Shown here one piece after another: positions 1 to 15,362 of a stretch of 64,000 nt of DNA. The stretch covers positions 1-64,000 of the IMG/VR virus record IMGVR_UViG_3300027969_002881; one strand, given 5' to 3'. The notes below the pieces were generated by a model. That model saw only the letters and a program-made list of their open reading frames with translations, made no database searches and was not told where the DNA came from. The translations under genes and the position numbers were made by a program. This DNA comes from a virus. The stretch's first letter is position 1. Every line of letters begins with the position of its first letter.

Positions 1-2582
1 AAGAAGATTTCCGTGATAATTTCTATAGAGATGCTGACATGGAAAGCGAATGGCTTGAAAGTGCTGATATCAATACCATGCAGGATGTCGAAGTTAAGTA
101 CAATATGACTTGGCCTCATTACTCTACCCCAGAAAGAGAAACAGGCGGAGTTAGTATAGAAGATGCCGCAGATAGTTTTAGTCGTGCTATTGGACGTGAA
201 GTGCAGGCCAGCAACAACTATCACAGCCGTAGTGTAACTAGGCCAGATGCTAATAATCTACACTATGTTGTAGAGCCGGATGGCAGTTTAGAAGCAGACG
301 AAGACGAAGACGGAGGTTTAGAGTTTGTTAGTCCAGCATTGCCTATTAATGAACTGTTAGACGACTTGAAAAAAGTTAAAGCATGGGCAGACAAAACTGG
401 TTGCTATACCAATGACAGCACCGGCTTACATATTAATGTCAGCGTTCCCAACTGGAAGGGCGACATGGCTCAGTTAGACTATGTTAAACTTGCTGTTCTA
501 ATGGGTGATGAATATGTGCTCAATGAATTTGGTCGTGCTGGTAATACCTATGCTAAGAGTGCCCTTATAATGGTTAAAGAACACATTGCTCAACGTCCTG
601 AAGATACAAAAGCATTGCTAGACAAAATGCGCGAACATTTAAACACCAGTGCTGCCAAAGCAATTCACAGCGGTAGCACCTCAAAGTATACAAGTATTAA
701 TACTAAAACAGGCTACATAGAATTCCGCAGTCCGGGTGGCGATTGGTTAAATGAAAACTTTGACAAGATTGAAAATACACTATATCGTTTTGTTGTTGCC
801 TTAGATGCCGCAGTAGACGAAACAAAATACAAACAAGAATACGCTAAAAAGCTTTATAAGTTATTAACAGGCAATGACAAAGATGCTACAAATACCATGG
901 CTTACTTTGCTAGATATGCGGCAGGTGAATTACCTCAGAGTGCATTAAAGAGTTTTATTAAACAAGCACAGTTTGAACGTAAGGCAGGTAAAGAACCCAA
1001 TGGTAAGAAAATGTGGTATAGGGTTGACAAAGAAGGACGTGGAAAATCTGGTGCCAGCGTTGAAGTTGTTGCTACATCAAAAGAAGAAGCATTACAAAAA
1101 GCAGCCAGTGAATGGAGCTTGAAATTAAGTGCATTAGGTGCTGCCGCTGTTTATCCTGTTCGCCCATTTGATAACAACGCAGACAACTGGGAAGTATATA
1201 ACGACCGTACTGGTGAAGTTGTTGGAACATTTAAAAGTGTAGATCCTGATGGAACATCGGATAACTATGACGCAACTGGTGATGATTATAGAAAATGGCG
1301 TTATCAAAATGGCATTAGTAATACGGAACCAAGAAGCTTTAGTCGTCGTCCTCGATTTGACAAGAACCGTTATGAATTGTTTAACTTAGATAGAAATAAA
1401 AGGTTAGATGAACCAGTTCCTGTAAGTGCTACTACAGATGAACAAGCATTGACTTTCTTAGATGATTATATTAATCACGGACCACACGGATTACAGCCAT
1501 TCCAAGCAAAACGTATGTTTGGTATAAGACGTTGGGGCGATAGTAATGCTGAACCTATACTAGCAACTCCAATTCGTGCCACGAGTGGTGAGCCACAACC
1601 TGCTGGTAGCGTAGGCCGTGCCGCTACAAGTCCAACAGAACAATGGAAAATTATTGATGGCTTAGGTCGCGAATTATATCGTTTCCGTCCTGCAGAAAAT
1701 ACAAGAGCAAGAGCCAATGTATTGGCAGCATCATGGATAAGCACAAATAACTTCAACGGTAACTATCAAGTCGAGCCAGTAGGAGAAAATGATCCAGCAC
1801 CACAACAGCAACCACAATCTCCGTCGAGTCTTGGCGCTAGAACAGATAGACCTTTTGTTTGGAAGGTTCAAGGCACTAATTCTGGATATCAAAGAACAGG
1901 CGTAGAAGTTATTGCTTCTAGTGAGTTCGAAGCAAAACAAAAAGCTAGACAACAATGGAATTTAAACACAAGTGGACAGTCTGAAGAAGAATACTTTAGA
2001 AATAATGGTTGGATTGCTACTCCTGTTCGTCCTGCACCGCCAAGACCTATTCCCGGCGTCACTGACATTGAGCCTGATATAGAACAAAACTTTACATCTG
2101 CGCCTGGTAGCACAACAGCATTGCCTAGTCGACTCATGTCACCTTTTGTTTGGAGGGTTTTCGGATCAAATGATTCTCCGCATCAAAGACAGGGTGCAGA
2201 AGTTGTTGCTTTTGATGAATTTGAAGCGATGCAACAAGTTAGGCGTGAATGGAATTTAAACACAAATGGGGCAACTGAAGCAGAGTTTTTTAGAGCTAAT
2301 GGATGGCGTGCAACTCCGCATCGTCCTGCTACTTCAGGAAGGCCTGGCGCTGTAAGACCTATACCCGGCAGCACTACAGACTTACAGCGACAACGTGCCG
2401 CTGGAGGCTTTACAGGTGCTTGGAAAATATTAGATACAGACACTGGCCGAGAATTATATAGATTCAGTGGAATTGGTAATTCACAGGCAGATGCTAATAG
2501 AGTTGCCGCAGACTGGCTAAGACAAAATGCTCCAGAAGATTCAGATATGACACAAATTGAAGTTGTGCCTATAATGAGATAA
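1..2582 (+). CDS. Putative amidoligase (COOH-NH2 ligase type 2 / Amidoligase_2-like) with repeated C-terminal modules; 5' end truncated by window edge
   Basis: The frame is open from the window start (EDFRDNFYRDADM...). Motifs EPDGSL, LEFVSP, YTNDSTGLHINVS and IEFRSPGG match the glutamine-synthetase-like amidoligase pattern. Confidence 0.7.
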   Translation, partial: EDFRDNFYRDADMESEWLESADINTMQDVEVKYNMTWPHYSTPERETGGVSIEDAADSFSRAIGREVQASNNYHSRSVTRPDANNLHYVVEPDGSLEADEDEDGGLEFVSPALPINELLDDLKKVKAWADKTGCYTNDSTGLHINVSVPNWKGDMAQLDYVKLAVLMGDEYVLNEFGRAGNTYAKSALIMVKEHIAQRPEDTKALLDKMREHLNTSAAKAIHSGSTSKYTSINTKTGYIEFRSPGGDWLNENFDKIENTLYRFVVALDAAVDETKYKQEYAKKLYKLLTGNDKDATNTMAYFARYAAGELPQSALKSFIKQAQFERKAGKEPNGKKMWYRVDKEGRGKSGASVEVVATSKEEALQKAASEWSLKLSALGAAAVYPVRPFDNNADNWEVYNDRTGEVVGTFKSVDPDGTSDNYDATGDDYRKWRYQNGISNTEPRSFSRRPRFDKNRYELFNLDRNKRLDEPVPVSATTDEQALTFLDDYINHGPHGLQPFQAKRMFGIRRWGDSNAEPILATPIRATSGEPQPAGSVGRAATSPTEQWKIIDGLGRELYRFRPAENTRARANVLAASWISTNNFNGNYQVEPVGENDPAPQQQPQSPSSLGARTDRPFVWKVQGTNSGYQRTGVEVIASSEFEAKQKARQQWNLNTSGQSEEEYFRNNGWIATPVRPAPPRPIPGVTDIEPDIEQNFTSAPGSTTALPSRLMSPFVWRVFGSNDSPHQRQGAEVVAFDEFEAMQQVRREWNLNTNGATEAEFFRANGWRATPHRPATSGRPGAVRPIPGSTTDLQRQRAAGGFTGAWKILDTDTGRELYRFSGIGNSQADANRVAADWLRQNAPEDSDMTQIEVVPIMR

Positions 2583-2585
2583 TAT

Positions 2586-4490
2586 ATGAGATTACTTGAA
2601 TTAAAAGAACAAACAATAGACGAAGCTCCAATGAATCCTGCTGCCTTTGGGCAGGCTATTGCCACTGGGCAAGAAGCAGGAGTATTAGTTGGCTACGAAT
2701 TTGAAGTTTGTATTCCTGAAGAAACTGTCAACTCTAATACAAAGAAAAAAACAGTGGCCGGTGTTACTAAAAATACAGTTGCTCGAGACATTTTAGATAA
2801 CCAATTATTTGACTATTTAGATTTTTATACTCTGTCTATAGAGAATTTTGACAATACTTTTAAATTTAAACGACCCGTAAATGGTTTTAATTCTATAAAA
2901 GAAGTTTACAATACGCTGGCCGCCGAAAAGTTAACAAATATTAGATCTATATTCAATAAAATTCCAGAAGATGTTCGAGCAAAATATGTAAAACGTGTCA
3001 AACAACAAACAGATCAATGGACAGCCAGCGACACTGTGCCAGGTGAGTTTGGCAAGCAATTAGACTTTGCAATGAGATTGGGCAGGACTATAGCGGGAAC
3101 TACTCCTGTACATAGAACTGTGAGAGACCTAGCAAATAAAATGGCACAAGAAAGCAATATACAATGGGGAGAATTGATTGGTAGATTGTTGGGTATCGAA
3201 CAGGGACCAGGCGGTTACGGATATGACATATCAGAGGATTTTGGAAGAAAGTTTAATCAATTGTTTGATTATGATCCCGATGAAGCCCACAGTATATTGA
3301 ATTTAGATGGCGATGACGAATACGATGAATACGATGAATACGATGAAGATCCCAGTTACGCTGATGCTGCCGAAGTTTTAAAATATCACGTAGCACAAAC
3401 CATGGGTACCAAGGTCAATGTATTCACTTCATATCATGAGAGAAATAAAAACATGAGAGACTGGTATATTGAACCAGATGGTAGTTTACAAGCTGACGAT
3501 GACATGGACGCAACAGCTGAAATTGTTAGCCCGCCACTGCCCGCCGTAAAAGCCATTGAAGACTTACAAAAATTCTATGCCATGGCTGGACAACTTAAAC
3601 TATATACCAATGACAGCACAGGCTTACACATTAATGTCAGTATTCCATTAAAATTAGATATATTAAAATTGGCAGTTTTCTTAGGCGATCAGTATGTATT
3701 GAAATATTTTAATAGACAGGATAATAGTTATGCAAGTAGTGTTACTACAAGTTTAAATAGACACATACAAAGCGAACCTGAAACTAATTTTAGTATGAAG
3801 GCGCTTCAAGGAATAGTGGCAAATTATAGCGGATCACACACAGCAAGTATCAGTAATAATGGAAAATACATTAGCTTCAGACATGCCGGCGGTAATTATC
3901 TAGCTGACTATAACGGAATTTACAATACAGTAGGACGATTTGTTCGTGCTATGATCATTGCCACTGATCCAAATATGTATGCCAATGAATATAAAACAAA
4001 GTTAGCCAAGTTAATGAATCAGGATAAACCTGCCAGCAAAGACACACCTGCTAACAAATTGGTACAGTATGTTAGAACGCATGGCGTTCCTATTTTAACA
4101 GTTCATGTTGCAAATATGTCAAGAGCAAAGACTGCAGATTTAATTTCAAATCAATTTGGACAAGCATTTATAGTTGATTCTATAACTGCTAATCCAAATG
4201 CCAAACAAGAATTATTAAAAGCCGGCGGCGGCACAGGCGGGACCAGATATACAAATCAATTGATAGACAATTTGACACCTAATAAGTTTTTTACAGCAGT
4301 ACTAAGTCCAAACCCATCACGGTTTTCAAGATTTCTACAAGGGCAGCCTGCGCCAGGTATTCATAGTATAGAAAGTAGAAACTGGAACACCCAGGGATAT
4401 TATAGTTCAGTAAAAGGAAATCTTCCTCCCACTGATCCAAGAACACAGACATATATTAAAGCGTTACTAAAGATGCATTACAAAGGATAA
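2586..4490 (+). CDS. Second putative amidoligase paralogue with N-terminal head-targeting-like tag
   Basis: VGYEFE, EPDGSL, AEIVSP, YTNDSTGLHINVSIP and ISFRHAGG align with ORF1. Starts MRLLELKE...IDEA. Confidence 0.7.
   Translation: MRLLELKEQTIDEAPMNPAAFGQAIATGQEAGVLVGYEFEVCIPEETVNSNTKKKTVAGVTKNTVARDILDNQLFDYLDFYTLSIENFDNTFKFKRPVNGFNSIKEVYNTLAAEKLTNIRSIFNKIPEDVRAKYVKRVKQQTDQWTASDTVPGEFGKQLDFAMRLGRTIAGTTPVHRTVRDLANKMAQESNIQWGELIGRLLGIEQGPGGYGYDISEDFGRKFNQLFDYDPDEAHSILNLDGDDEYDEYDEYDEDPSYADAAEVLKYHVAQTMGTKVNVFTSYHERNKNMRDWYIEPDGSLQADDDMDATAEIVSPPLPAVKAIEDLQKFYAMAGQLKLYTNDSTGLHINVSIPLKLDILKLAVFLGDQYVLKYFNRQDNSYASSVTTSLNRHIQSEPETNFSMKALQGIVANYSGSHTASISNNGKYISFRHAGGNYLADYNGIYNTVGRFVRAMIIATDPNMYANEYKTKLAKLMNQDKPASKDTPANKLVQYVRTHGVPILTVHVANMSRAKTADLISNQFGQAFIVDSITANPNAKQELLKAGGGTGGTRYTNQLIDNLTPNKFFTAVLSPNPSRFSRFLQGQPAPGIHSIESRNWNTQGYYSSVKGNLPPTDPRTQTYIKALLKMHYKG
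3318..3344 (+). repeat. 9-bp tandem repeat (GAATACGAT)x3 encoding an acidic E-Y-D tract
   Basis: Three perfect in-frame copies read directly. Confidence 0.9.
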
Positions 4491-4494
4491 TGGA

Positions 4495-4698
4495 ATGAGA
4501 TTAAACGAATTTATAAACGAAAGCATTGACGATGGCAGAGCATATATCAAACGCTACACACGCAAACGTATTGACGGATCCACAGAAGTTCGTTATAATG
4601 TCATTGACGGTAATGGTGTTACTAAAAAAGCATTTGATGATTTAGAATACGCCAAAGGTTACCTTAGAGCTAACAGAGATTTGTTAGACAAGATTTAA
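4495..4698 (+). CDS. Small hypothetical protein, probable head-internal protein
   Basis: 67 aa, starts MRLNEFINES. Confidence 0.7.
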   Translation: MRLNEFINESIDDGRAYIKRYTRKRIDGSTEVRYNVIDGNGVTKKAFDDLEYAKGYLRANRDLLDKI

Positions 4699-4702
4699 TT
4701 GA

Positions 4703-4710
4703 AATAAATA
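4703..4710 (+). promoter_or_regulatory. T4-like late promoter candidate (AATAAATA)
   Basis: TAAATA core in the short intergenic gap, 8 nt before the ATG. Confidence 0.5.
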
Positions 4711-4717
4711 TAACACT

Positions 4718-5824
4718 ATGAGATTACTAGAAATTAAACAGGCCATAACTGAAGGCGGCAAAAGCGGTGGCATTCGCTACAACAGCGAAGTGGGCTTGCT
4801 TTACGGCCTAGTGGGTAAAGGTCCGTTTGACCCTAAGAATCCTGAACTGTCTATTCCTGCCAGTATCTTAATGAATCCTGAACAGACATACAAAGATATT
4901 AAAAGCCTGTTAGCACCCAACTATGATGAAGCTACGTTTGATGCTTGGGCAGGCAAAGGCTCAATGGTACGTGAAAAGATTGTGGCTAAACAAGGAGCCG
5001 AGCCTACCAAGCTTGGCTGGGCAGGCGGACAAAATATTGCCGCCGGCGTTACTGACGTTGAGTTCGAAAGTGGTAAGACGGCTGGTATTAGTATCAAAGC
5101 TGAAGGCGGTATTACCTTGGCCAATTTAACTCCAAAGGCCCTGGGTATTGAAACAAGTCGCGGCATTGACGTGTTTGCCATGCACGCTGGCCAAGAGTAC
5201 AATGATATGAAGACCAAAGTCTTTACTGATGTACTAAAAGCCGCACAAGATACACCCGGTACGCAACTGATTCCATTAAATCGTTATGGCATTACCTATG
5301 ATGACAAGTCTACCAAATACACTATCAACTTGAAAGGCGACAAAAATGTTACCATGACAGCACAACAGATAATGGGTGCCATTAGTAAAAACTCACAATG
5401 GCAGCGTGTATTCGGCGATTGGTTCCAAGCTAACTGGACCACTAAGAAAAGCTATGCTACTCCTTTGTACTCTAAGATTGCTAAAGTTTTTGAAGTTACC
5501 ATAGAGCAAACACTAAACAAGTCTGGCAAGCTAGCCAGTATACTGCGCTTTGGAACAAAGCCTTACTACTACCTAAGTGCCAAAGGGTTGTACTATGTGC
5601 CAGCACAAGATGAAGTAGCTGACATTAAATTAAAAGGTTTGAAATACGCACAACCAGACGGTACCAGTCAGCGATTCATTGCTGTGATTGGGCGCCCTGA
5701 TAGCGAAGATAATGCTGAACTAGATATCTATGTACGCTATGCCAATGGCATGTTCGAAAGCAATCCAACTGTGCGTGTACAAAGTTTAAAGAATCCACAG
5801 TTCATTGGATGGGAACTACTTTAA
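4718..5824 (+). CDS. Hypothetical protein, possible PD-(D/E)xK-like nuclease, with head-targeting-like tag
   Basis: Contains TDVEFESGKTAGISIK, resembling the D...(I/V)S(I/L)K restriction-endonuclease-like motif. Starts MRLLEIKQAITEG. Confidence 0.45.
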   Translation: MRLLEIKQAITEGGKSGGIRYNSEVGLLYGLVGKGPFDPKNPELSIPASILMNPEQTYKDIKSLLAPNYDEATFDAWAGKGSMVREKIVAKQGAEPTKLGWAGGQNIAAGVTDVEFESGKTAGISIKAEGGITLANLTPKALGIETSRGIDVFAMHAGQEYNDMKTKVFTDVLKAAQDTPGTQLIPLNRYGITYDDKSTKYTINLKGDKNVTMTAQQIMGAISKNSQWQRVFGDWFQANWTTKKSYATPLYSKIAKVFEVTIEQTLNKSGKLASILRFGTKPYYYLSAKGLYYVPAQDEVADIKLKGLKYAQPDGTSQRFIAVIGRPDSEDNAELDIYVRYANGMFESNPTVRVQSLKNPQFIGWELL

Positions 5825-5847
5825 TTAAAATAAATCGAAACAAATTC

Positions 5848-5855
5848 GATAAATA
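5848..5855 (+). promoter_or_regulatory. T4-like late promoter candidate (GATAAATA)
   Basis: Intergenic, immediately upstream of ATG 5861. Confidence 0.55.
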
Positions 5856-5860
5856 AACTT

Positions 5861-6079
5861 ATGAAGATTCGAGAACTAACAGAAGATGCCAGTGACATGG
5901 GTTCAGGTAGCGTAGCTACAGTTTCCATGCCATTTATGCGAATGCACCGCAGAAGAAAAACAAGAAGTATGCGTAAAGAATCAGGTACTGAAATACTACG
6001 CAGAATACCATATGCAAATATTGCTGAAGAATTAGCATTAGCATTAGAAAAAAAATGGACAGGAAAAAAGGATTTATAA
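5861..6079 (+). CDS. Small hypothetical protein, probable head-internal protein
   Basis: Starts MKIRELTEDA; stop overlaps the next start (TAATG). Confidence 0.6.
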   Translation: MKIRELTEDASDMGSGSVATVSMPFMRMHRRRKTRSMRKESGTEILRRIPYANIAEELALALEKKWTGKKDL

Positions 6080-6705
6080 TGGATAAAGCAAAAGCCCGCA
6101 AAATGTATGAACTTGCAACTCGTTTGAGCAACGTTAATGCCAGCGAACTAACTGAACAACAACTCGGTGAACGCAATTTAATGATTACACGACTACAAGA
6201 AGAAATGAATAAACTACGCGAAGCTGGGTTGACTCCTTCAGTTAGCGACCCAGCTGACAATGGTCCAACCCAAGGCACACATTATAATGTTAACAAGCTA
6301 GGTGGTGAAATTGGTGTTGATCCTAGAGTTTTAAGAATAGCTATTCAGCGTAGTATGACTGGTAATCCAACTAGACAAGATACACTAACACTAGCTGATG
6401 CATTTTTAGGTATTTTGAAAAACGGCGATGACCAAACTATTCAAAATATTGCTAACATTATCAAATCTGGTAATCCTAGAAAAGAAATTCCGCAAGAAAG
6501 CACAGCGGCAATCGCAGAACGTAATGCCTTTGTTGATGCTATGCGTCAAGTTAAAAAAGGTGAGAAGTTTACAGTAGGCGGTAAAGAATTTACCAAAACA
6601 ACCAGCCATGGTATAGGTGGCAAGGAAGAAGTAAAAGAAGAAATAAACACAGAAGCTTATGATAGACTACGAAAAGTTTTTGACTTCAGCAATTATAAGG
6701 GTTAA
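6079..6705 (+). CDS. Hypothetical protein
   Basis: Start more likely at ATG 6079 (TAATG coupling) than at 6055. Confidence 0.65.
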   Translation: MDKAKARKMYELATRLSNVNASELTEQQLGERNLMITRLQEEMNKLREAGLTPSVSDPADNGPTQGTHYNVNKLGGEIGVDPRVLRIAIQRSMTGNPTRQDTLTLADAFLGILKNGDDQTIQNIANIIKSGNPRKEIPQESTAAIAERNAFVDAMRQVKKGEKFTVGGKEFTKTTSHGIGGKEEVKEEINTEAYDRLRKVFDFSNYKG

Positions 6706-6708
6706 ACC

Positions 6709-7956
6709 ATGAATTTATTTGAACTATTTGAAAGTCCAGTTATTGCTGGTGCAAACAATTTAAAAGCCATTGCCAATGCGGCAACTACCAGCACCAGTGC
6801 TACTATTACACTTGGTGGTGAGCCAATTACATTAGAGCATCCAGAAGCTACATTTGTATACGGTTTGTACAAAAAATCACTACAGAATGGTCGCCAGGAA
6901 CAATTCATGCAAATGCTGGCCGATCCAAGATCATTTGATCAATTAATGGCTGGTATGCGTAATATGATGAACAGAGATCGTGGTCCAGAAATGGCACAAG
7001 CGGCTGCTCAACGTATTGGTCAACCTGGCGTACAAGAAGGCATGCCAATTGCTGAAGCAGTCCCAGAACAAAACGACACACTAGCGCACATTGTCAAACG
7101 TTTCCCTAAGGAAGTTAAAGACTTTGCGGCAGGTCATGAACTAAGTGATGAATTATATCACGCACTATATGACTACTATTTCCTACATGGTGAAATGCCA
7201 TATGGTACAGCAAAAGCTAGAGATGGTGATCCTTATGAATGGATTCATCAGCGTTTCGATCAAGATGTTCATGACTATATTACAGAGTCCATCACAGAAG
7301 GCAAGAAGAAAGTCACTGAACGCTATGATGATGAAGACGATGATTGGTATGGTTTCAACGACAAAACTCGTAAAGCCGCTACTGGTGGTACTGTAACTAA
7401 AACTAGTTCAGGTGTAGTTCACAAAGGCAAATACGGCAGCGAATATCAAGGCGATGACGGTGACGAAGAAGATTATGATGAGTGGGGCAACAAAAAGCCT
7501 GCGGCCAAGGCAGCGGCTAAAGTTGCAAAAGCTGATGCTAAGGCTGCAGCCACGCCTAGAGCCGCTGGCCGTCCAAGTTCGAGTGTTCAAACAACCGACG
7601 CTGGTGAAAAGATCACTGATTATAGACTATGGTATCATAAGTCTAAGAGATTACACCCAGAACGTAAAATTGTAGGTAGTGCAGAAAATGCTGTAGCAGT
7701 TATTCCAACTGGTGATAAATTTGCTATCATTGGTTCCTGGAATTCAGGTGCGGGTATGTTGGCACAAAAAGCAGGTAAGAAAATATCCGCTGTGCAATTA
7801 CAAGCGTATAAAAGCGCAAGGGGACGTCCTGCTCGTCGTGCTGAAAGTGCTATGATGCCAAAGGGTCGTGGTCGTCCAGTGCGTGAGTTTATCGAACAAC
7901 TACGTTGTATCGCAGAAGGATACAAAACTAGAGAAGAGATAAGGTCAGTTCTATGA
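6709..7956 (+). CDS. Modular hypothetical protein, probable head-internal protein
   Basis: Starts MNLFELFES; several internal (V/I)xE-(G/A/S) sites separate distinct segments. Confidence 0.65.
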   Translation: MNLFELFESPVIAGANNLKAIANAATTSTSATITLGGEPITLEHPEATFVYGLYKKSLQNGRQEQFMQMLADPRSFDQLMAGMRNMMNRDRGPEMAQAAAQRIGQPGVQEGMPIAEAVPEQNDTLAHIVKRFPKEVKDFAAGHELSDELYHALYDYYFLHGEMPYGTAKARDGDPYEWIHQRFDQDVHDYITESITEGKKKVTERYDDEDDDWYGFNDKTRKAATGGTVTKTSSGVVHKGKYGSEYQGDDGDEEDYDEWGNKKPAAKAAAKVAKADAKAAATPRAAGRPSSSVQTTDAGEKITDYRLWYHKSKRLHPERKIVGSAENAVAVIPTGDKFAIIGSWNSGAGMLAQKAGKKISAVQLQAYKSARGRPARRAESAMMPKGRGRPVREFIEQLRCIAEGYKTREEIRSVL

Positions 7957-8564
7957 GATTATTTGAATTCGCACAAGAACACAGTTTAACTGAAAGCGAT
8001 AGCCCTGTAGCCAGTGCTATTACTCGTAGAATTTTATTACAACGCACAGACTTATTAAGTAAGTATGGTCCTGAAAAAGTTATGGCTGCAATCGATGATG
8101 TAGCGGACTTTGTAGGTGACACTGAAGAAATTGGTAGCAGTGACGTTAGCGGCTGGATCAAACAAGTTGAACAGTCATTGGCTGATATGACTGGTGAAGG
8201 TGTGGTAGAGGCCGGCGGTAGATATGGTAGCAATAATCCAGACACTATGAGTCCTAACAATTATGATCGTTATCAACAAGATCAAATGGATCAAGGCAAG
8301 CGTGATTTCAAACGTCAAGAACATGATGCTGAGTGGGAACAAGAAAAAGCTCACAGCGCGAATTTATCCGCACGTGATGCAGGTACTTGGTATATTCGCT
8401 TAAACGGTAAACTCATTAGAGACAAACAAGGCAATCCTTATTCATTCCGTGGAAAGGCTGCCGCAAATAAAGCCGCACTAACAATGCAGGCCAAACTGTT
8501 TAATCAGGGTAAAGAGTTTATGTTGACTACTAACCCCAACGATAAGCAACAAGGCATGGAGTAA
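7953..8564 (+). CDS. Modular hypothetical protein, probable head-internal protein
   Basis: Starts MRLFEFAQEHSLTES; internal GVVEAG. Confidence 0.65.
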   Translation: MRLFEFAQEHSLTESDSPVASAITRRILLQRTDLLSKYGPEKVMAAIDDVADFVGDTEEIGSSDVSGWIKQVEQSLADMTGEGVVEAGGRYGSNNPDTMSPNNYDRYQQDQMDQGKRDFKRQEHDAEWEQEKAHSANLSARDAGTWYIRLNGKLIRDKQGNPYSFRGKAAANKAALTMQAKLFNQGKEFMLTTNPNDKQQGME

Positions 8565-8569
8565 TACCA

Positions 8570-9256
8570 ATGAGATTACATCAACTTACTGAATCAAAAC
8601 AAAATGTAGCGGAAAGCGCCGAAGATCGAACAAGTTATCAGGTTGCCAAAATATTATCCGACAAAGGTATTAAGTACGAACGTGGCGGCGAAAACGAATT
8701 AATCAATACAATCGGTATGGTCCTTGTTAAAGAATTAAACATGAGTCCAAAACAAGCTCGTGGATTGATTAGCTATGATGAAGATTTTATCAGCGACACA
8801 ATGAGCGAATTACAGCATATGAGCCGGGGTGTGAAAGAAGAATTCAACGGTGAATACGATGATGAAGCAGGCATGGCTAAAAGTAATCTACGTACAATGG
8901 CTCGTGCTGTAAACGGTTTACTAGATACTATAGAAGACAATGACAACTTGCCAGAATGGGCACAGGAAAAACTTGCTAAAGCAGAAATGATGACAACTAG
9001 TGTTTGGGATTATTTACTAAGTCAAAAAGAACAAGGCATGGATCCTAAAGTAACAGAGGCCGATGCGCCACGATTTGATCCACTTGTTGCTAAAATAGCA
9101 GCCAAAATGAAAGGCCCAACAGAAAATGATGCTATAGCCGCATTAATAACTGTACTCGGCACTAGCGCATATAATGAACGCCCTGGTTTTTATAGGTTAT
9201 GGCTCGGCCAAGCGATTGACAAGTATAGTAAAGAAGGTATGGCGGCCGGCAAATGA
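8570..9256 (+). CDS. Modular hypothetical protein, probable head-internal protein
   Basis: Starts MRLHQLTES; internal VAES, VKEE and VTEA. Confidence 0.65.
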   Translation: MRLHQLTESKQNVAESAEDRTSYQVAKILSDKGIKYERGGENELINTIGMVLVKELNMSPKQARGLISYDEDFISDTMSELQHMSRGVKEEFNGEYDDEAGMAKSNLRTMARAVNGLLDTIEDNDNLPEWAQEKLAKAEMMTTSVWDYLLSQKEQGMDPKVTEADAPRFDPLVAKIAAKMKGPTENDAIAALITVLGTSAYNERPGFYRLWLGQAIDKYSKEGMAAGK

Positions 9257-9675
9257 GATTACACGAGCTTACTGAATCAATCCAAGACTTAGATTCTCAA
9301 TTTGATATCATTGAATCTTGGGTAGAACAACTTGCCGAACAACATGGTGTTGATGCTGATGTAATTTGGGAAGACTTTGAAGAACTAGGTGATAATGACT
9401 TACTAAACGAAGCTGCCGCTTGGCAAAAGAAATCAGGTAAAAACAAGAACGGTGGTTTAAATGCCAAAGGTGTTGCCTCTTATCGTAGAGAGAATCCTGG
9501 CAGTAAATTACAAACAGCAGTTACTACTAAACCTAGTAAACTTAAAAAAGGCAGCAAAGCAGCCAAACGCCGCAAATCATTCTGTGCTAGAATGGGCGGC
9601 ATGAAAGGTCCAATGAAGGGCGATAATGGCAAGCCAACTCGTAAAGCATTGGCTTTAAGAAAGTGGAATTGCTAA
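9253..9675 (+). CDS. Probable head-internal protein: acidic N-module plus basic C-module (GGLNAKG...RRKSFCARM...RKWNC)
   Basis: Starts MRLHELTES. The basic C-terminal module resembles one I recall as widespread in T4-like phages. Confidence 0.65.
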   Translation: MRLHELTESIQDLDSQFDIIESWVEQLAEQHGVDADVIWEDFEELGDNDLLNEAAAWQKKSGKNKNGGLNAKGVASYRRENPGSKLQTAVTTKPSKLKKGSKAAKRRKSFCARMGGMKGPMKGDNGKPTRKALALRKWNC

Positions 9676-9676
9676 A

Positions 9677-10681
9677 ATGAAAATACAAGAACTAATTGAA
9701 GCTAAACAACGTTTAGATCCCAAGTGCTGGAAAGGCTATAAAAAGCAAGGCACTAAGATGAAAGGCGACACTAGAGTTAACAACTGTGTGCCTGAAAGTG
9801 CTGATCAAGGTGTGGCGGAAGTTGCTGGACCTGCTGTCGATTCAAAAGGCCGCACACAACGTCAGTGGATTCAAGCTGTCAAGGCAAAGTTCCCCGATGC
9901 TAAAATTATTCAGTCTAAGATGATTGATGGTCCTTGCCAAGCAACATTAACTGACGGCAGAACACTTGTATGGAAAAAAGTAGACCAAGTTGAAGAGATA
10001 ATTGATCCAACTGGTGCTACAGCAAACGCATTACGTTATGTTGGTAGAAAAATAGCCACTGTTTTTCCATTGTTAGCAGTAGGTGGTGTAGGTGCAGGAT
10101 TGGCTTACGCTGGACTAATGGCTCCTATTGTAGCCTCAATGGGCGGCGTGGGTACTGCACTGGCTGGGTTAAGCACCGAGGTCATGGCCTACGGTGCTGT
10201 TGGCGGCATGGCGGCGACACCATCGTTGATACAAATTATCAAAGATTTATTTGCCGCAGATGAAAATAGTATTCAAGCAGGTATTAAGCGTTGGGTAGAA
10301 AAACATGTAGGTGACGAAAACGATGTACTAGAGTTTATGAATTTACATGCTCAGAGTGCATACTTGAAACAACGCCTATTCCGTTGGAGAGCCAAACAGT
10401 GGGAAGTTAAAATGAAACCCGATGAAGCAGAAGCCTACTTAGAAAAAAATAATAAGCATTGGTTAGACATGGAAAAGCAAAAAGTCATCGATGCCGAAAA
10501 AGCAAAAGTCGATGCCGCAAAGGCAGAAGTAAAACCAGGTATGGCAGAAGGATTAGATGCTGATCAAAAGAAAGCTCGTCAAGTTCCTGGAACTGAAATG
10601 CCAAAAAAGACTAGTCCAGTACTAGGTAAAGCACCCAAGCAACATCCTTTCAAAGGTCGTGCTGTTGGTGACGGTCTATAA
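9677..10681 (+). CDS. Modular probable head-internal protein with CWKGY...NCVP module and a Gly/Ala-rich hydrophobic segment
   Basis: Starts MKIQELIEA; internal GVAEV and GMAEG; hydrophobic stretch FPLLAVGGVGAGLAYAGLMAPIV... Confidence 0.65.
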   Translation: MKIQELIEAKQRLDPKCWKGYKKQGTKMKGDTRVNNCVPESADQGVAEVAGPAVDSKGRTQRQWIQAVKAKFPDAKIIQSKMIDGPCQATLTDGRTLVWKKVDQVEEIIDPTGATANALRYVGRKIATVFPLLAVGGVGAGLAYAGLMAPIVASMGGVGTALAGLSTEVMAYGAVGGMAATPSLIQIIKDLFAADENSIQAGIKRWVEKHVGDENDVLEFMNLHAQSAYLKQRLFRWRAKQWEVKMKPDEAEAYLEKNNKHWLDMEKQKVIDAEKAKVDAAKAEVKPGMAEGLDADQKKARQVPGTEMPKKTSPVLGKAPKQHPFKGRAVGDGL

Positions 10682-10684
10682 ATA
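10677..10684 (+). promoter_or_regulatory. T4 late promoter consensus TATAAATA
   Basis: Exact T4 gp55 consensus just upstream of ATG 10690. Confidence 0.65.
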
Positions 10685-10689
10685 AAACT

Positions 10690-11058
10690 ATGAGATTAGA
10701 AGGTTTTGTAGCCAAAGGCTGGGGCTCGGAAAACATTTGGGCTACCAATGACAAATACTGCGGTAAACTATTAAAGTTTAACCAAGGTGCTAAATTCAGT
10801 ATGCACTTCCATGCTGAAAAAGAAGAAACATGGTATGTACTCAGTGGTAGCTTTATTGTTCGCTGTATTGACACAGCCAACGCCAATCAATACGAACAAA
10901 CTTTAAAAGAAGGTGATGTATGGCATAACAAACCATTATTACCACATCAACTAATCTGTGTAGAAGAAGGTGTTATCATTGAAGTCAGTACACCTGATTC
11001 AGTGGAAGATAATTACAGAGTAGGCAAGGGCGACAGTCAAAATGCGAGTAATGGTTAA
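10690..11058 (+). CDS. Cupin-fold protein (sugar isomerase / mannose-6-phosphate isomerase-like)
   Basis: SMHFHAEKEETWYVLSG and PHQL cupin motifs. Confidence 0.7.
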   Translation: MRLEGFVAKGWGSENIWATNDKYCGKLLKFNQGAKFSMHFHAEKEETWYVLSGSFIVRCIDTANANQYEQTLKEGDVWHNKPLLPHQLICVEEGVIIEVSTPDSVEDNYRVGKGDSQNASNG

Positions 11059-12484: not shown

Positions 12485-12720
12485 TTAAATTCCTAAAAGA
12501 GCAAACATGGCAATTTTATTTTGAATGGCTATGTACGGCTGTTCTTATTATCGGAGTTGCCCTGACCAGTTATAATGTTTATCCTCTAAACATTTGGCTC
12601 AGTTGCCTAGGCAATCTAGGTTGGTTTGTTCTCGGTATACTATGGCGTAAGTGGAGTTTGATTATTGTTCAACTTATAGTTACATTAATCTATGTTGCAG
12701 GAATATATAATATACTATGA
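12481..12720 (+). CDS. Small three-TM membrane protein
   Basis: Three hydrophobic segments; similar architecture to 41260..41502. Confidence 0.6.
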   Translation: MIKFLKEQTWQFYFEWLCTAVLIIGVALTSYNVYPLNIWLSCLGNLGWFVLGILWRKWSLIIVQLIVTLIYVAGIYNIL

Positions 12721-15362
12721 GTTATGTTGACGCAATTTATGTAAAAGATAAAGACCTTATTAATGTAGTAGAACGAGTTGATGGAGTAAGAAAGTTTAAA
12801 AGTTTTCCTGCCCATTACCTGTTTTACTATGCTGACAATAAAGGTCAATACACAGGCATTGATGGTAAAAGACTGACTAAGGTTGCTGTGGCCAGTAACA
12901 AAGCTTTCGATAAAGAAAAGCGCATATATGGACACAAACAACTTTACGAAAGTGACATTAAGCCATTAAACAGATGTTTAGAATCAAACTATCTAAACAG
13001 TGACGCTCCACAAGTCAATAAGGCATTTTTCGATATTGAGGTTGCTTACAGTAAAGAAAAAGGGTTTGCTGATCCCAGCGATCCGTTTAATCCCATTACT
13101 GCTATCTCTGTACATTGTGGCTGGCTGGATAAACTAATTACATTGGTTATTAAACCTGACCTAATGGCACAGGATCAAGCAGAAGCTATTGTAGCTAGAT
13201 TTGATGACACTATACTTTGTCCCAACGAAGAAGATATGTTGGATACGTTTCTAACTATCATTGACGACGCTGACATTATCAGTGGTTGGAACAGCGAAGG
13301 CTATGACGTACCTTATACAGTTAATAGAATTATTAAACTCATGGGTGCGGATCATACTCGTAGATTTTGCCTATGGAATGCTAAACCTAAGAAGCGTGAA
13401 TACGAAAAGTATGGTAAGATTAGTGAAACATACGACTTTGTCGGTCGTGTACACTTGGACTATCTTGACTTGTATCGTAAGTATACCTATCATGAACTTC
13501 ACACATATCGACTTGACTATGTAGGTGAGATTGAAATTGGCGAAACTAAAGTTCACTATGAAGGCACATTGGATCAACTGTATAACAATGACTTTGAAAA
13601 GTTCATTGCGTATAACAGACAAGATACCATGTTGCTGTTCAAGATGGACGCCAAGCTACAATACATTGACTTAGTTAACGTGTTGGCCCATGCAAACACA
13701 GTTACACTACGCACAACAATGGGTGCGGTGGCTATGACTGATCAAGCTATTATCAATGAAGCTCACGGGCGAGGAGTAATGGTAATGGATCGTAAGCGTG
13801 GTGATGGTATTGAAACACAGGCCGCAGGTGCTTATGTAGCTTATCCTAAAAAAGGTGTACATGATTGGATCGGGTCAATGGACTTGAACAGTTTGTATCC
13901 TAGTTTGATCCGTGCTCTTAATATGAGTCCAGAAACTATTATTGGACAGGTGCGTCAACAACAAACTAAACAAGAACTTACAGCATGGCTGGACAGTGGC
14001 AAAGGCTTTGCTGACTACTGGGATGGAAAGTTTGCTGTACATGAATATGATCAAGTCATGGCTAAAAACAAAGCCTATGATGTTATCATTGATTGGGAGA
14101 ATGGCACCAGCACAGAAATGTCGGCCGCCGAAGCATACGAGTTAATTTATCTAAATGGTAACCCTTGGATGTTAACTTCCAATGGCACAATCTTTACTTT
14201 TGAAAAGCAAGGCGTTATTCCTGGATTGCTAGCACGTTGGTATAGTGAACGTAAAGAACTACAAGTCAAAGCCAAAGAAGCATATGGTACAGATATGTTT
14301 GAGTATTGGGATAAGCGACAGTTGGTCAAGAAGATTAATTTGAACTCGTTATATGGTGCGTTGCTCAATGCAGGATCTAGATTCTTCGACCTACGCATGG
14401 GACAGAGCACAACACTATGTGGTAGACAAGTTGCCAAGCACATGGCCAGTCAGGTAAATGAAATGTTTACTGGAGAATATAATCACTTGGGTGAAACTAT
14501 TATCTATGGTGACACTGACAGTTGTTACTTTAGTGCTTATCCAGTTTATAAAAATCAAATTGGCCGCAATGAACTTGAATGGACTCGTGATAAAATCATC
14601 GAGTTATATGATACAGTGGCAGATGAGGTCAATAATACATTTCCTGGCTTTATGAATCAAGCATTTAATTGCCCCACTAACTATGGTGAAATTATTAAAG
14701 CAGGACGAGAAGTTGTCGCCAGTAAAGGCTTGTTCATTACTAAAAAACGTTATGCCGTTCTTATCTATGATAAAGAAGGTAAACGCAAAGACAAAGATGG
14801 AGAGCTCGGCGAGATTAAAGCCATGGGACTCGATCTTAAAAGGTCTGATACTCCTGAATTCATGCAAAAGTTTCTTGAGCAAATTTTGCTTATGGTTCTC
14901 AATGGACAAGACAAGCAAGACGTTATTGATGCCATCAATGAATTTAGAACAGCATTCAAGGAACGTCCAGGTTGGGAGAAAGGTACACCCAAGCGTGTTA
15001 ACAACTTAACCAAACATACCGAAGTCTTTGCAAAGACTGGTAAGTGCGGAGTTGGACATGCTATGGCGGCTATCAATTGGAATAGATTTAAAAAAGCACA
15101 CAGTGATCAGCGCAGTATGGATATTACTGATGGTATGAAAGTTATTGTATGTAAACTTAAATCCAATCCAATGGGTATAACAAGCATTGCTTATCCAACT
15201 GATGAACTTAGACTACCAGAATGGTTTAAAGAATTATCGTTTGATAATGCGGCTATGGAATCTACTATTATTGACAATAAAGTGGACAACCTAATTGGAG
15301 TTCTTGACTGGGATATCAGTGCTAGTGATCAAAAAACTAGCTTCGATATGTTGTTCGGGTAA
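12717..15362 (+). CDS. polB: Family B DNA polymerase with 3'-5' exonuclease
   Basis: FFDIEV (ExoI), GWNSEGYDVPY (ExoII), YNRQD (ExoIII), DLNSLYPS, KINLNSLYG, YGDTDS. Confidence 0.97.
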   Translation: MSYVDAIYVKDKDLINVVERVDGVRKFKSFPAHYLFYYADNKGQYTGIDGKRLTKVAVASNKAFDKEKRIYGHKQLYESDIKPLNRCLESNYLNSDAPQVNKAFFDIEVAYSKEKGFADPSDPFNPITAISVHCGWLDKLITLVIKPDLMAQDQAEAIVARFDDTILCPNEEDMLDTFLTIIDDADIISGWNSEGYDVPYTVNRIIKLMGADHTRRFCLWNAKPKKREYEKYGKISETYDFVGRVHLDYLDLYRKYTYHELHTYRLDYVGEIEIGETKVHYEGTLDQLYNNDFEKFIAYNRQDTMLLFKMDAKLQYIDLVNVLAHANTVTLRTTMGAVAMTDQAIINEAHGRGVMVMDRKRGDGIETQAAGAYVAYPKKGVHDWIGSMDLNSLYPSLIRALNMSPETIIGQVRQQQTKQELTAWLDSGKGFADYWDGKFAVHEYDQVMAKNKAYDVIIDWENGTSTEMSAAEAYELIYLNGNPWMLTSNGTIFTFEKQGVIPGLLARWYSERKELQVKAKEAYGTDMFEYWDKRQLVKKINLNSLYGALLNAGSRFFDLRMGQSTTLCGRQVAKHMASQVNEMFTGEYNHLGETIIYGDTDSCYFSAYPVYKNQIGRNELEWTRDKIIELYDTVADEVNNTFPGFMNQAFNCPTNYGEIIKAGREVVASKGLFITKKRYAVLIYDKEGKRKDKDGELGEIKAMGLDLKRSDTPEFMQKFLEQILLMVLNGQDKQDVIDAINEFRTAFKERPGWEKGTPKRVNNLTKHTEVFAKTGKCGVGHAMAAINWNRFKKAHSDQRSMDITDGMKVIVCKLKSNPMGITSIAYPTDELRLPEWFKELSFDNAAMESTIIDNKVDNLIGVLDWDISASDQKTSFDMLFG

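What the first reader, a model, noticed from the sequence alone, without database searches (positions are those of the whole stretch)
2586..10681. Nine consecutive unrelated proteins share an N-terminal capsid-targeting-like tag
Seen: MRLLELKE..IDEA (2586), MRLNEFINES (4495), MRLLEIKQAITEG (4718), MKIRELTEDA (5861), MNLFELFES (6709), MRLFEFAQEHSLTES (7953), MRLHQLTES (8570), MRLHELTES (9253), MKIQELIEA (9677). The bodies behind the tags are otherwise dissimilar, and no gene elsewhere in the window has the full tag. Known: T4 internal proteins carry a roughly 10-aa N-terminal capsid-targeting sequence (MKTYQEFIAE in IPIII) that gp21 protease removes after Glu. Inference: this is a zip-coded cargo locus from which the phage loads an interchangeable arsenal of proteins into the head for co-injection. 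It could also be used for engineering.
Basis: partly seen in the sequence, partly recalled or inferred. Interest (0 to 1): 0.8.

Follow-up and report, generated by a model that had tools for sequence, protein, structure and literature searches.

The report
Capsid-address tags on jumbo-phage proteins
Nine neighbouring, unrelated genes of an uncultured freshwater giant phage start with the same short peptide, a close cousin of the tag phage T4 uses to load proteins into its head; proteins with this tag are over-represented in the published particle proteome of a cultured relative, so this is a new example of a known mechanism.

Summary
Nine of ten consecutive + strand genes (2586-10681) begin M-[R/K/N]-[L/I]-x-[E/Q]-[L/F/I] and reach an aliphatic-x-Glu site 8-14 residues in. 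No other of about 150 ORFs on the 128-kb contig does.

The signal is in the protein, not the DNA. Upstream DNA is unrelated and codons vary.

In two large cargo families the leader is kept while the body diverges, and it ends just before the conserved body:
- 368-aa family: 109/118 tagged; L/I/V-x-E before G/A/D in 114/118.
- Amidoligase family: 102/104 tagged; V/I/L/M-x-E before A/V in 104/104.

This fragment has no head genes. Three related contigs and Agrobacterium phage Atu_ph07 encode a T4 gp21-type (S77) prohead protease.

In Atu_ph07, 8 of 13 tag-bearing ORFs, plus the amidoligase homologue gp196, are in the published virion proteome (about 2.4 expected).

Best reading (about 0.7): a T4-style capsid-targeting, protease-removed leader on a fast-changing block of late cargo genes. 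Packaging, cleavage and injection are untested for this phage.

This is a new member of a known kind. The scan has already reported such arrays on other DNA, apparently including the close relative G001 (e1-5921221).

The parts
3..2582 (+). 5'-truncated amidoligase-family ORF (Pfam Amidoligase_2) with C-terminal repeated modules. It probably belongs to the tagged set, but its N-terminus lies off the contig.
   Evidence: Pfam PF12224, 1.2e-9. It is the orthologue (76% identity) of a tagged 784-aa protein of G001, aligned from about residue 173 of that protein, so at least 170 N-terminal residues are missing here.
2586..4490 (+). Tagged cargo gene 1: 634-aa amidoligase-family protein. Leader is residues 1-13; predicted cut after I-D-E, before A-P-M-N-P.
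   Evidence: In its family 102/104 leaders are tagged, and 104/104 have [V/I/L/M]-x-E before A/V directly ahead of the conserved body. The homologue gp196 of Atu_ph07 is in the virion proteome.
4495..4698 (+). Tagged cargo gene 2: 67 aa. Predicted cut after I-N-E, before S (residue 9).
   Evidence: Its body equals the last 51 residues of a tagged 206-aa protein of G001 (82% identity), so there is a modular deletion behind the tag.
4704..4710 (+). ATAAATA, the core of a T4-type late promoter, 14 nt before the 4718 start.
   Evidence: By my count of the upstream stretches printed, about 23 of the roughly 31 tagged orthologue loci carry the same motif about 12-15 nt upstream of the start. It also lies upstream of the portal gene in G005.
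4718..5824 (+). Tagged cargo gene 3: 368 aa, the most widespread cargo family. Leader is residues 1-12; predicted cut after I-T-E, before G-G.
   Evidence: 109/118 homologues are tagged and 114/118 have L/I/V-x-E before G/A/D. The AlphaFold model has pLDDT 87.6 with residues 1-15 below 50. Fold matches to PD-(D/E)xK nucleases are only weak.
5849..5855 (+). ATAAATA late-promoter-like motif, 12 nt before the 5861 start.
5861..6079 (+). Tagged cargo gene 4: 72-aa basic protein. Predicted cut after L-T-E, before D (residue 8).
   Evidence: A tagged 74-aa orthologue is present in G001.
6079..6705 (+). The one untagged gene of the block (208 aa from the conserved ATG at 6079). Its start overlaps the stop of the tagged 72-aa gene (TAATG).
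   Evidence: conserved start and overlap in G001. (82% identity to the G001 orthologue).
6709..7956 (+). Tagged cargo gene 5: 415 aa, no known family. Predicted cut after L-F-E, before S (residue 8).
7953..8564 (+). Tagged cargo gene 6: 203 aa. Predicted cut after L-T-E, before S (residue 14).
   Evidence: The G001 orthologue has an insertion of about 85 aa.
8570..9256 (+). Tagged cargo gene 7: 228 aa. Predicted cut after L-T-E, before S (residue 8).
   Evidence: No BLASTP match among the ORFs of the G001 block compared.
9253..9675 (+). Tagged cargo gene 8: 140 aa with a very basic C-terminal DUF6321 module. Predicted cut after L-T-E, before S (residue 8).
   Evidence: Pfam PF19846, 3.6e-22. 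The module occurs between the scaffold and capsid genes of pelagiphage HTVC022P. It also ends a 614-aa protein encoded between gp16 and gp17 of cyanophage ACG-2014f.
9677..10681 (+). Tagged cargo gene 9: 334 aa with a small Cys-x...Cys knuckle and a Gly/Ala-rich hydrophobic stretch. Predicted cut after L-I-E, before A (residue 8).
   Evidence: G001 has an 85-aa version made of the tag, the knuckle and the C-terminal 44 residues. The knuckle matches cyanomyophage proteins.

Best explanation
The shared N-terminus is a T4-type capsid-targeting leader. It has two parts.
- An N-terminal hexapeptide with hydrophobic residues at positions 3 and 6 around a Glu at position 5. This would dock the protein to the scaffolding core of the assembling prohead.
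- A spacer of 0 to about 10 residues ending in aliphatic-x-Glu. There the phage's gp21-type (S77) prohead protease would cut, releasing the mature protein inside the head.

The block 2586-10681 is a late-transcribed, rapidly changing set of such cargo genes. The cargo includes amidoligase enzymes, a possibly nuclease-like protein, very basic small proteins and others.

Shown here:
- the tag, its enrichment at N-termini and its conservation at protein level;
- the position of the cut-site motif at the leader/body boundary;
- S77 proteases in relatives;
- presence of tagged proteins in the virion of a cultured relative.

Inferred: docking to the core, cleavage after Glu, packaging in this phage, and ejection into the host with the DNA.
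For: 1. Enrichment and clustering of the tag on this contig.

2. Selection acts on the protein.
- Upstream DNA is unrelated.
- Arg is coded AGA/CGA/CGT, Lys AAA/AAG, and the hydrophobic positions use many codons across 22 distinct orthologue starts.

3. The leader is a separable module.
- In the 368-aa family (46-92% identity), 109/118 members are tagged. Leader length varies from 8 to 17. P3 is L 63, I 46, V 4. P1' is G 95, A 14, D 5, right before the conserved body.
- In the amidoligase family, 102/104 are tagged and 104/104 have V/I/L/M-x-E before A/V.
- Members with an extra N-terminal GGCT domain still carry the tag at the extreme N-terminus.
- A few gene calls start exactly at the predicted mature end.
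- The tagged DUF6267 protein of G001 matches Pfam only from residue 14. Its untagged cyanophage counterpart starts at the body.

4. In the AlphaFold model, residues 1-15 are unanchored (pLDDT below 50) with a short helix at 3-7.

5. T4 comparison, read from the T4 record.
- IPII/IPIII, gp24, gp22 and the alt.-1 remnant share hydrophobic-x-x-hydrophobic around Glu, then (I/L)-x-E before A/S.
- In T4, positions 4 and 7 target and positions 8 and 10 direct processing (PMC9026906).
- The same layout appears here, shifted by one residue.

6. Peptidase_S77 is present in G005, G006 and G009, contigs that also carry the tagged 368-aa orthologue. Atu_ph07 gp204 matches T4 gp21.

7. The small protein encoded right after the portal gene bears the tag in G006, G009 and Atu_ph07.

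8. Experimental data from a cultured relative.
- A whole-genome scan of Atu_ph07 found 13 tag-bearing ORFs.
- Eight of them match entries of the published virion proteome (PMC6102473, Table S5) by mass to 0.01 kDa and by gene order: gp47, 63, 199, 394, 487, 548, 561 and 672.
- About 2.4 would be expected; hypergeometric p is about 7e-4.
- The amidoligase homologue gp196 has 14 unique peptides.

9. An ATAAATA late-promoter-like motif lies 12-15 nt upstream of 4718 and 5861 and upstream of most orthologues. It also lies upstream of the portal and other head genes in G005.

10. Block content differs between G000 and G001 by gene gain or loss and by module indels.
Against: - No head gene, S77 protease or major capsid gene lies on this 128-kb fragment, which CheckV rates 35% complete. 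The protease is therefore inferred from relatives.
- No data exist on virion content or N-termini for this phage.
- The Atu_ph07 proteome shows presence in the particle, not cleavage, not location inside the head, and not injection. Five of its 13 tagged ORFs were not detected.
- The tag is not identical to the T4 sequence. It is one residue shorter before the Glu, and P3 is mostly Val in the amidoligase family.
- The late-promoter motif is short and AT-rich, and it also precedes non-structural genes.
- One gene of the block has no tag.
Confidence: 0.7

Rival explanations
1. The leader marks virion proteins and may be cut by the prohead protease, but the proteins are structural or assembly parts (core, scaffold helpers, DNA-condensing proteins). 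They would not be an injected arsenal.
For: - The Atu_ph07 proteome shows only presence in particles.
- T4 structural proteins gp24, gp22 and gp67/68 also carry such leaders.
- The tagged small gene next to the portal gene is conserved like a structural gene.
- Several cargo proteins are small and very basic.
Against: - The block includes large enzymes (amidoligases of 634 and at least 859 aa) that have no obvious structural role.
- Its content changes quickly between close relatives, unlike core structural genes.
Confidence: 0.15
2. The leader is a recognition sequence for some other machinery. Examples: one of the many radical-SAM enzymes of this phage (RiPP-like leader), a chaperone, a degradation signal, or membrane targeting.
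For: - The contig and relatives carry many radical-SAM genes: 17 matches in G005, 5 in G009, 4 in Atu_ph07.
- An earlier scan case, e1-127136, linked a shared phage N-terminal tag to a radical-SAM enzyme rather than to capsid sorting.
Against: - G006 (184 kb) has tagged genes and no radical-SAM match.
- The leader has no Cys, Ser or Thr pattern typical of radical-SAM substrates.
- It ends in the protease motif.
- Tagged proteins are enriched in virions of Atu_ph07.
- A tagged gene sits inside the head module.
Confidence: 0.07
3. The shared start reflects a nucleic-acid-level feature with no role for the peptide. This could be a translation-initiation or downstream-box element, or a recombination cassette at gene starts.
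For: - Six of the nine genes share ATG AGA TTA.
- Most have a weak or no Shine-Dalgarno sequence.
- Gene-start cassettes that shuffle genes are known in T4-type phages (my own knowledge, not checked here).
Against: - Upstream sequences are unrelated.
- Codons at positions 2, 3, 5 and 6 vary widely among orthologues while the residue class is kept.
- The conserved Glu at the leader/body boundary lies at variable distance from the start.
Confidence: 0.05

Closest known systems
Capsid targeting sequence (CTS) of phage T4 internal proteins IPI, IPII, IPIII and Alt, removed by the gp21 prohead protease (Mullaney and Black 1996; reviewed in PMC9026906 and PMC3012670)
   Same: - A short N-terminal leader is shared by otherwise unrelated proteins.
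- Hydrophobic residues lie three apart around a Glu, and the leader ends in aliphatic-x-Glu followed by a small residue.
- The cargo set is diverse and fast-changing, with only the leader conserved.
- Large enzymes can be cargo (Alt in T4).
- Late expression is likely.
   Different: - The consensus is one residue shorter before the Glu (M-R/K-L/I-x-E-L/F, against M-K-T-Y-Q-E-F in T4).
- The spacer to the cut site varies from 0 to about 10 residues.
- P3 is often Val.
- The genes sit in one tight array of nine to eleven rather than being scattered.
- The host phage is an uncultured jumbo phage related to Atu_ph07, not a T-even phage.
- Nothing has been tested at the bench for this phage.
Propeptide-bearing ejection and inner-body proteins of phiKZ-like giant phages (phiKZ, 201phi2-1, SPN3US), cut at (S/A/G)-x-E by a homologous prohead protease (PMC5694885)
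   Same: Giant phages load many proteins into the head. The protease cuts after Glu at a three-residue motif.
   Different: In those phages the propeptides are mostly over 100 residues long and the P3 residue is small. Here the leaders are 8-17 residues with an aliphatic P3, as in T4.
Virion proteome of Agrobacterium phage Atu_ph07 (Attai et al. 2018, PMC6102473)
   Same: Atu_ph07 is the closest cultured relative by DNA polymerase (47% identity). It has a T4-like portal, protease and capsid. Its amidoligase homologue gp196 and eight tag-bearing proteins were found in particles.
   Different: The word searches I ran in the main text of that paper ('prohead', 'internal', 'late promoter') found no mention of prohead processing or internal proteins. 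The Table S5 rows carry no such note. In Atu_ph07 the tagged genes are scattered over 490 kb rather than arrayed.

Membership tests
T4-type capsid-targeted, gp21-processed head proteins | A short N-terminal leader shared by proteins whose bodies are unrelated | tested here: met
   Nine genes carry the leader, and BLASTP finds no similarity among the bodies.
T4-type capsid-targeted, gp21-processed head proteins | The leader ends in (L/I)-x-E followed by a small residue, at the boundary with the folded body | tested here: met
   All nine genes have such a site at residue 8-14. The boundary position is confirmed in two families: 114/118 and 104/104. P3 is often Val in the second family.
T4-type capsid-targeted, gp21-processed head proteins | The phage encodes a gp21-type (Peptidase_S77) prohead protease | tested here: inconclusive
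   None was found on this 35%-complete fragment. The protease is present in the related contigs G005, G006 and G009 and in Atu_ph07 as gp204.
T4-type capsid-targeted, gp21-processed head proteins | Tagged proteins are present in purified virions | not testable with these tools
   No data exist for this phage. In the cultured relative Atu_ph07, 8 of 13 tagged ORFs plus gp196 are in the published proteome.
T4-type capsid-targeted, gp21-processed head proteins | The leader is removed after Glu in mature particles | not testable with these tools
   This needs semi-tryptic or N-terminomic mass spectrometry. Table S5 gives coverage only.
T4-type capsid-targeted, gp21-processed head proteins | The leader alone suffices to load a foreign protein into the head | not testable with these tools
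   This is a bench test (tag-GFP fusion).
T4-type capsid-targeted, gp21-processed head proteins | Late (virion-programme) expression | tested here: inconclusive
   An ATAAATA motif lies 12-15 nt upstream of two genes of the block and of most 368-aa orthologues, and also upstream of head genes in G005. The motif is short and AT-rich, and no transcript data exist.
PD-(D/E)xK restriction-endonuclease-like fold (for the 368-aa cargo protein only) | A fold match to solved nucleases, with the catalytic D...(E/S/Q)-x-K motif conserved | tested here: inconclusive
   Foldseek found nothing. VIA-align gave weak rows: HinP1I Z 4.4 over 169 aa, MspI Z 3.9 over 152 aa, Dna2 Z 4.8, a Cas4-like protein Z 4.6. 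D113, S125 and K127 are invariant in the family.

The most novel reading that the evidence does not exclude
The tag is a readable 'cargo code' for a whole lineage of uncultured freshwater and marine jumbo and T4-related phages. With it, the injected proteome could be predicted from sequence alone.

In this phage the cargo would include pre-made enzymes. One would be a restriction-like nuclease that spares the phage's own 7-deazaguanine-modified DNA. Others would be amidoligases that modify a host target on entry. Together these would amount to an offensive, phage-borne restriction-modification strategy delivered with the DNA.
Probability: 0.2. Interest if true: 0.7.

Novelty: new member of a known kind. 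Interest (0 to 1): 0.45.

Why it matters
If the tag works as in T4, the proteins a phage brings into the cell at the first moment of infection can be listed from sequence alone for uncultured giant phages. Here the list contains enzyme families, amidoligases and a widespread 368-aa family, that have no assigned role in infection.

The tag also gives a second, natural loading signal for engineering phage heads.

The mechanism itself is textbook for T4. This scan has already met similar arrays, so the gain is breadth and new cargo, not a new principle.

Tried and rejected
- Programmed -1 frameshift, or a homopolymer error, at the A8 run 6048-6055 that would fuse the tagged 72-aa ORF to the untagged ORF. 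Rejected: G001 lacks the A run. Both phages keep a conserved downstream ATG (6079 here) that overlaps or adjoins the upstream stop.
- Complex prediction of the tagged 72-aa protein with the untagged 208-aa neighbour, to test piggy-back loading. Verdict: no answer, score 0.02. This is not evidence either way.
- Megablast of the block against phage records: no match.
- tblastn of the 368-aa and 415-aa proteins against phage records: no match.
- PHROGs, NCBIfam and Pfam gave nothing for six of the nine cargo proteins.
- Two ESM Atlas look-ups gave nothing usable.
- A PDB sequence-profile search with the 368-aa family found no hit. Foldseek found no hit.
- Exact TATAAATA occurs only once near the block, before the cupin gene 10690. 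Only the 7-mer ATAAATA precedes tagged genes.
- Searches for Peptidase_S77 and Gp23 on this contig found none.

Full report
WHERE THE WINDOW LIES

The window is the first 64 kb of a 127,886-bp IMG/VR virus contig that CheckV rates 35% complete. Its family-B DNA polymerase (12717-15362) is closest to the jumbo phages Phosso and Atu_ph07 (47-49% identity) and next to Rak2-like phages (42%). Earlier notes of this scan call it a freshwater jumbo phage.

THE OBSERVATION

- Each begins M-[R/K/N]-[L/I]-x-[E/Q]-[L/F/I] and reaches an aliphatic-x-Glu site at residue 8-14, followed by S (five times), A (twice), G or D.
- On the whole contig, 9 of 150 N-termini match, against 0 of 844 internal Met positions and 15 of 38,853 positions of any kind.
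- All nine lie within ten adjacent genes (P at most 1.7e-11).
- Upstream DNA is unrelated, so this is not a repeated DNA cassette.
- With the first 16 residues removed, the nine bodies show no BLASTP similarity to each other.
- The truncated ORF 3-2582 upstream is a paralogue of 2586-4490; both are Pfam Amidoligase_2.
- ORF 3-2582 is the orthologue of a tagged 784-aa protein in the close relative G001, so its tag is probably just off the contig.

THE TENTH GENE

ORF 6055-6705 has no tag. I first suspected a -1 frameshift at an A8 run that would join it to the tagged 72-aa ORF. G001 lacks that run. Both phages keep a downstream ATG (6079 here) that overlaps the upstream stop. It is therefore a real, untagged, translationally coupled gene. 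A complex prediction of the pair gave no answer.

THE LEADER IS A PORTABLE PROTEIN MODULE

368-aa protein (4718-5824). It has hundreds of relatives in metagenomes.
- Of the 118 relatives in which my script found the conserved body motif, at 46-92% identity, 109 start with the tag.
- Four of the nine exceptions carry the tag at an internal Met of an over-long gene call.
- 114 have L/I/V-x-E immediately before the conserved G-G-K-S body.
- Leader length varies from 8 to 17.

Amidoligase family.
- 102 of 104 leaders are tagged.
- All 104 have V/I/L/M-x-E before A/V just ahead of the conserved M-N-P motif.
- Members with an additional N-terminal GGCT domain still carry the tag at the very N-terminus.

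Other observations.
- Across 22 distinct orthologue starts the codons differ while residue classes are kept.
- The AlphaFold model of the 368-aa protein is confident (pLDDT 87.6) except for residues 1-15, which form a loose short helix.
- In G001, a tagged DUF6267 protein matches the Pfam model only from residue 14.
- The apparent cyanophage S-H9-2 counterpart starts directly at the same conserved N-terminal motif, as read from its N-terminus. I did not run it against Pfam.

LINK TO THE HEAD

This fragment has no S77 protease and no Gp23-type capsid gene.

Three related contigs that carry the tagged 368-aa orthologue do have a Peptidase_S77 gene (G005, G006, G009). It lies in a T4-like order: portal, small protein, gp67-like protein, protease, scaffold, capsid.

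The small protein right after the portal gene bears the tag in G006, in G009 (from an internal Met) and in the cultured phage Atu_ph07.

Read from the T4 record, the N-termini of IPII/IPIII, gp24, gp22 and the alt.-1 remnant have the same layout, shifted by one residue. The review PMC9026906 states that T4 CTS positions 4 and 7 serve targeting and positions 8 and 10 serve processing.

EXPERIMENTAL SUPPORT FROM A RELATIVE

Attai et al. 2018 (PMC6102473) list 131 virion proteins of Atu_ph07 in Table S5.
- I fetched the 490-kb genome and found 13 ORFs with tag plus cut site.
- Eight match Table S5 entries by mass to 0.01 kDa: gp47, 63, 199, 394, 487, 548, 561 and 672.
- Gene order, checked through accession numbers, agrees for gp47, 63, 199, 394, 548 and 561. 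I did not check it for gp487 and gp672.
- About 2.4 matches are expected by chance; hypergeometric p is about 7e-4.
- The amidoligase homologue gp196 lies next to the portal gene and starts with a variant tag. It is present with 14 unique peptides.

These data show presence in particles. They do not show cleavage or injection.

TIMING AND PLASTICITY

- ATAAATA, the core of the T4 late promoter, lies 12-15 nt before 4718 and 5861.
- By my count of the upstream stretches printed, it also lies before about 23 of the roughly 31 tagged orthologue loci.
- It also lies before the portal and other head genes in G005.
- The other genes of the block abut or overlap, so they are probably co-transcribed.
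- Between G000 and G001 (87% identity in the 368-aa protein), genes are gained or lost, and modules behind the tag are inserted or deleted.

CARGO

- Two amidoligases.
- The 368-aa protein. Its fold gives only weak matches to PD-(D/E)xK nucleases, and I leave that open.
- A basic DUF6321 protein. Its module sits between the scaffold and capsid genes in a pelagiphage.
- A protein with a Cys knuckle and a hydrophobic Gly/Ala stretch.
- Five proteins with no family assignment: 4495, 5861, 6709, 7953 and 8570.

RIVALS

- A radical-SAM leader cannot be excluded, because such enzymes abound in this lineage. However, G006 has tags and no radical-SAM gene, and the virion data point elsewhere.
- A nucleic-acid-level explanation fails on the codon data.
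- A purely structural role for the cargo remains open.

VERDICT

This is a T4-style capsid-targeting leader on an array of late cargo genes. It is a new member of a known kind. This scan has already seen it on other DNA, apparently including G001.

Noticed in passing
window 10677-11058: The gene after the block (a cupin, Pfam Cupin_2) starts MRLEGF, a partial look-alike of the tag with no cut site. It is preceded by the only exact TATAAATA near the block, which may mark the start of a separate late unit.
   Followed up: partly
window 1500-2582 (ORF 3-2582, C-terminal half): The truncated amidoligase protein ends in several copies of two short modules of about 50-60 residues. One starts W-K-I-(I/L)-D, the other V-W-(K/R)-V. 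The G001 orthologue matches them in shuffled order (multiple BLASTP segments).
   Followed up: no
G005 contig about 29,900-40,000 (locus L016:9900-20000): About 10 kb next to the baseplate and tail genes has no ORF longer than about 250 aa on either strand under table 11. This is odd for a densely coded phage. Possible causes are a broken giant gene, another genetic code, or non-coding DNA.
   Followed up: no
L119 (Synechococcus phage S-H9-2, 84-89 kb): A T4-like cyanophage has three genes side by side without the tag: one whose N-terminus matches the conserved start of the DUF6267 domain, an annotated cytidylyltransferase, and a Cys-knuckle protein. The same kinds of genes are tagged in G001. 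The cargo set may therefore be older than the tag, or the tag may differ there.
   Followed up: partly
L039 (Pelagibacter phage HTVC022P, 19.2-19.9 kb): Four tiny genes lie between the scaffold and capsid genes of this T7-like phage. Two are extremely Lys/Arg-rich peptides of 41-48 aa, and one is a DUF6321 protein 84% identical over the last 31 residues to the window's 9253 protein. They are possibly DNA-condensing head-internal proteins shared across phage families.
   Followed up: partly
L033 (Atu_ph07, 162.4-165.2 kb): Annotation slips in the public record. The gene named 'topoisomerase IV subunit A' (gp200) starts like the gp67-type prohead core proteins of G005, G006 and G009. The gene named 'prohead core protein' (gp204) is the one that matched T4 gp21, the protease.
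   Followed up: partly
window 4495-4698 and 9677-10681 versus G001: Behind an unchanged tag, G000 keeps only the last 51 residues of a 206-aa G001 protein. Conversely, G000 has a roughly 250-aa insertion in what is an 85-aa protein in G001. Cargo genes seem to evolve by module indels behind a fixed leader.
   Followed up: partly
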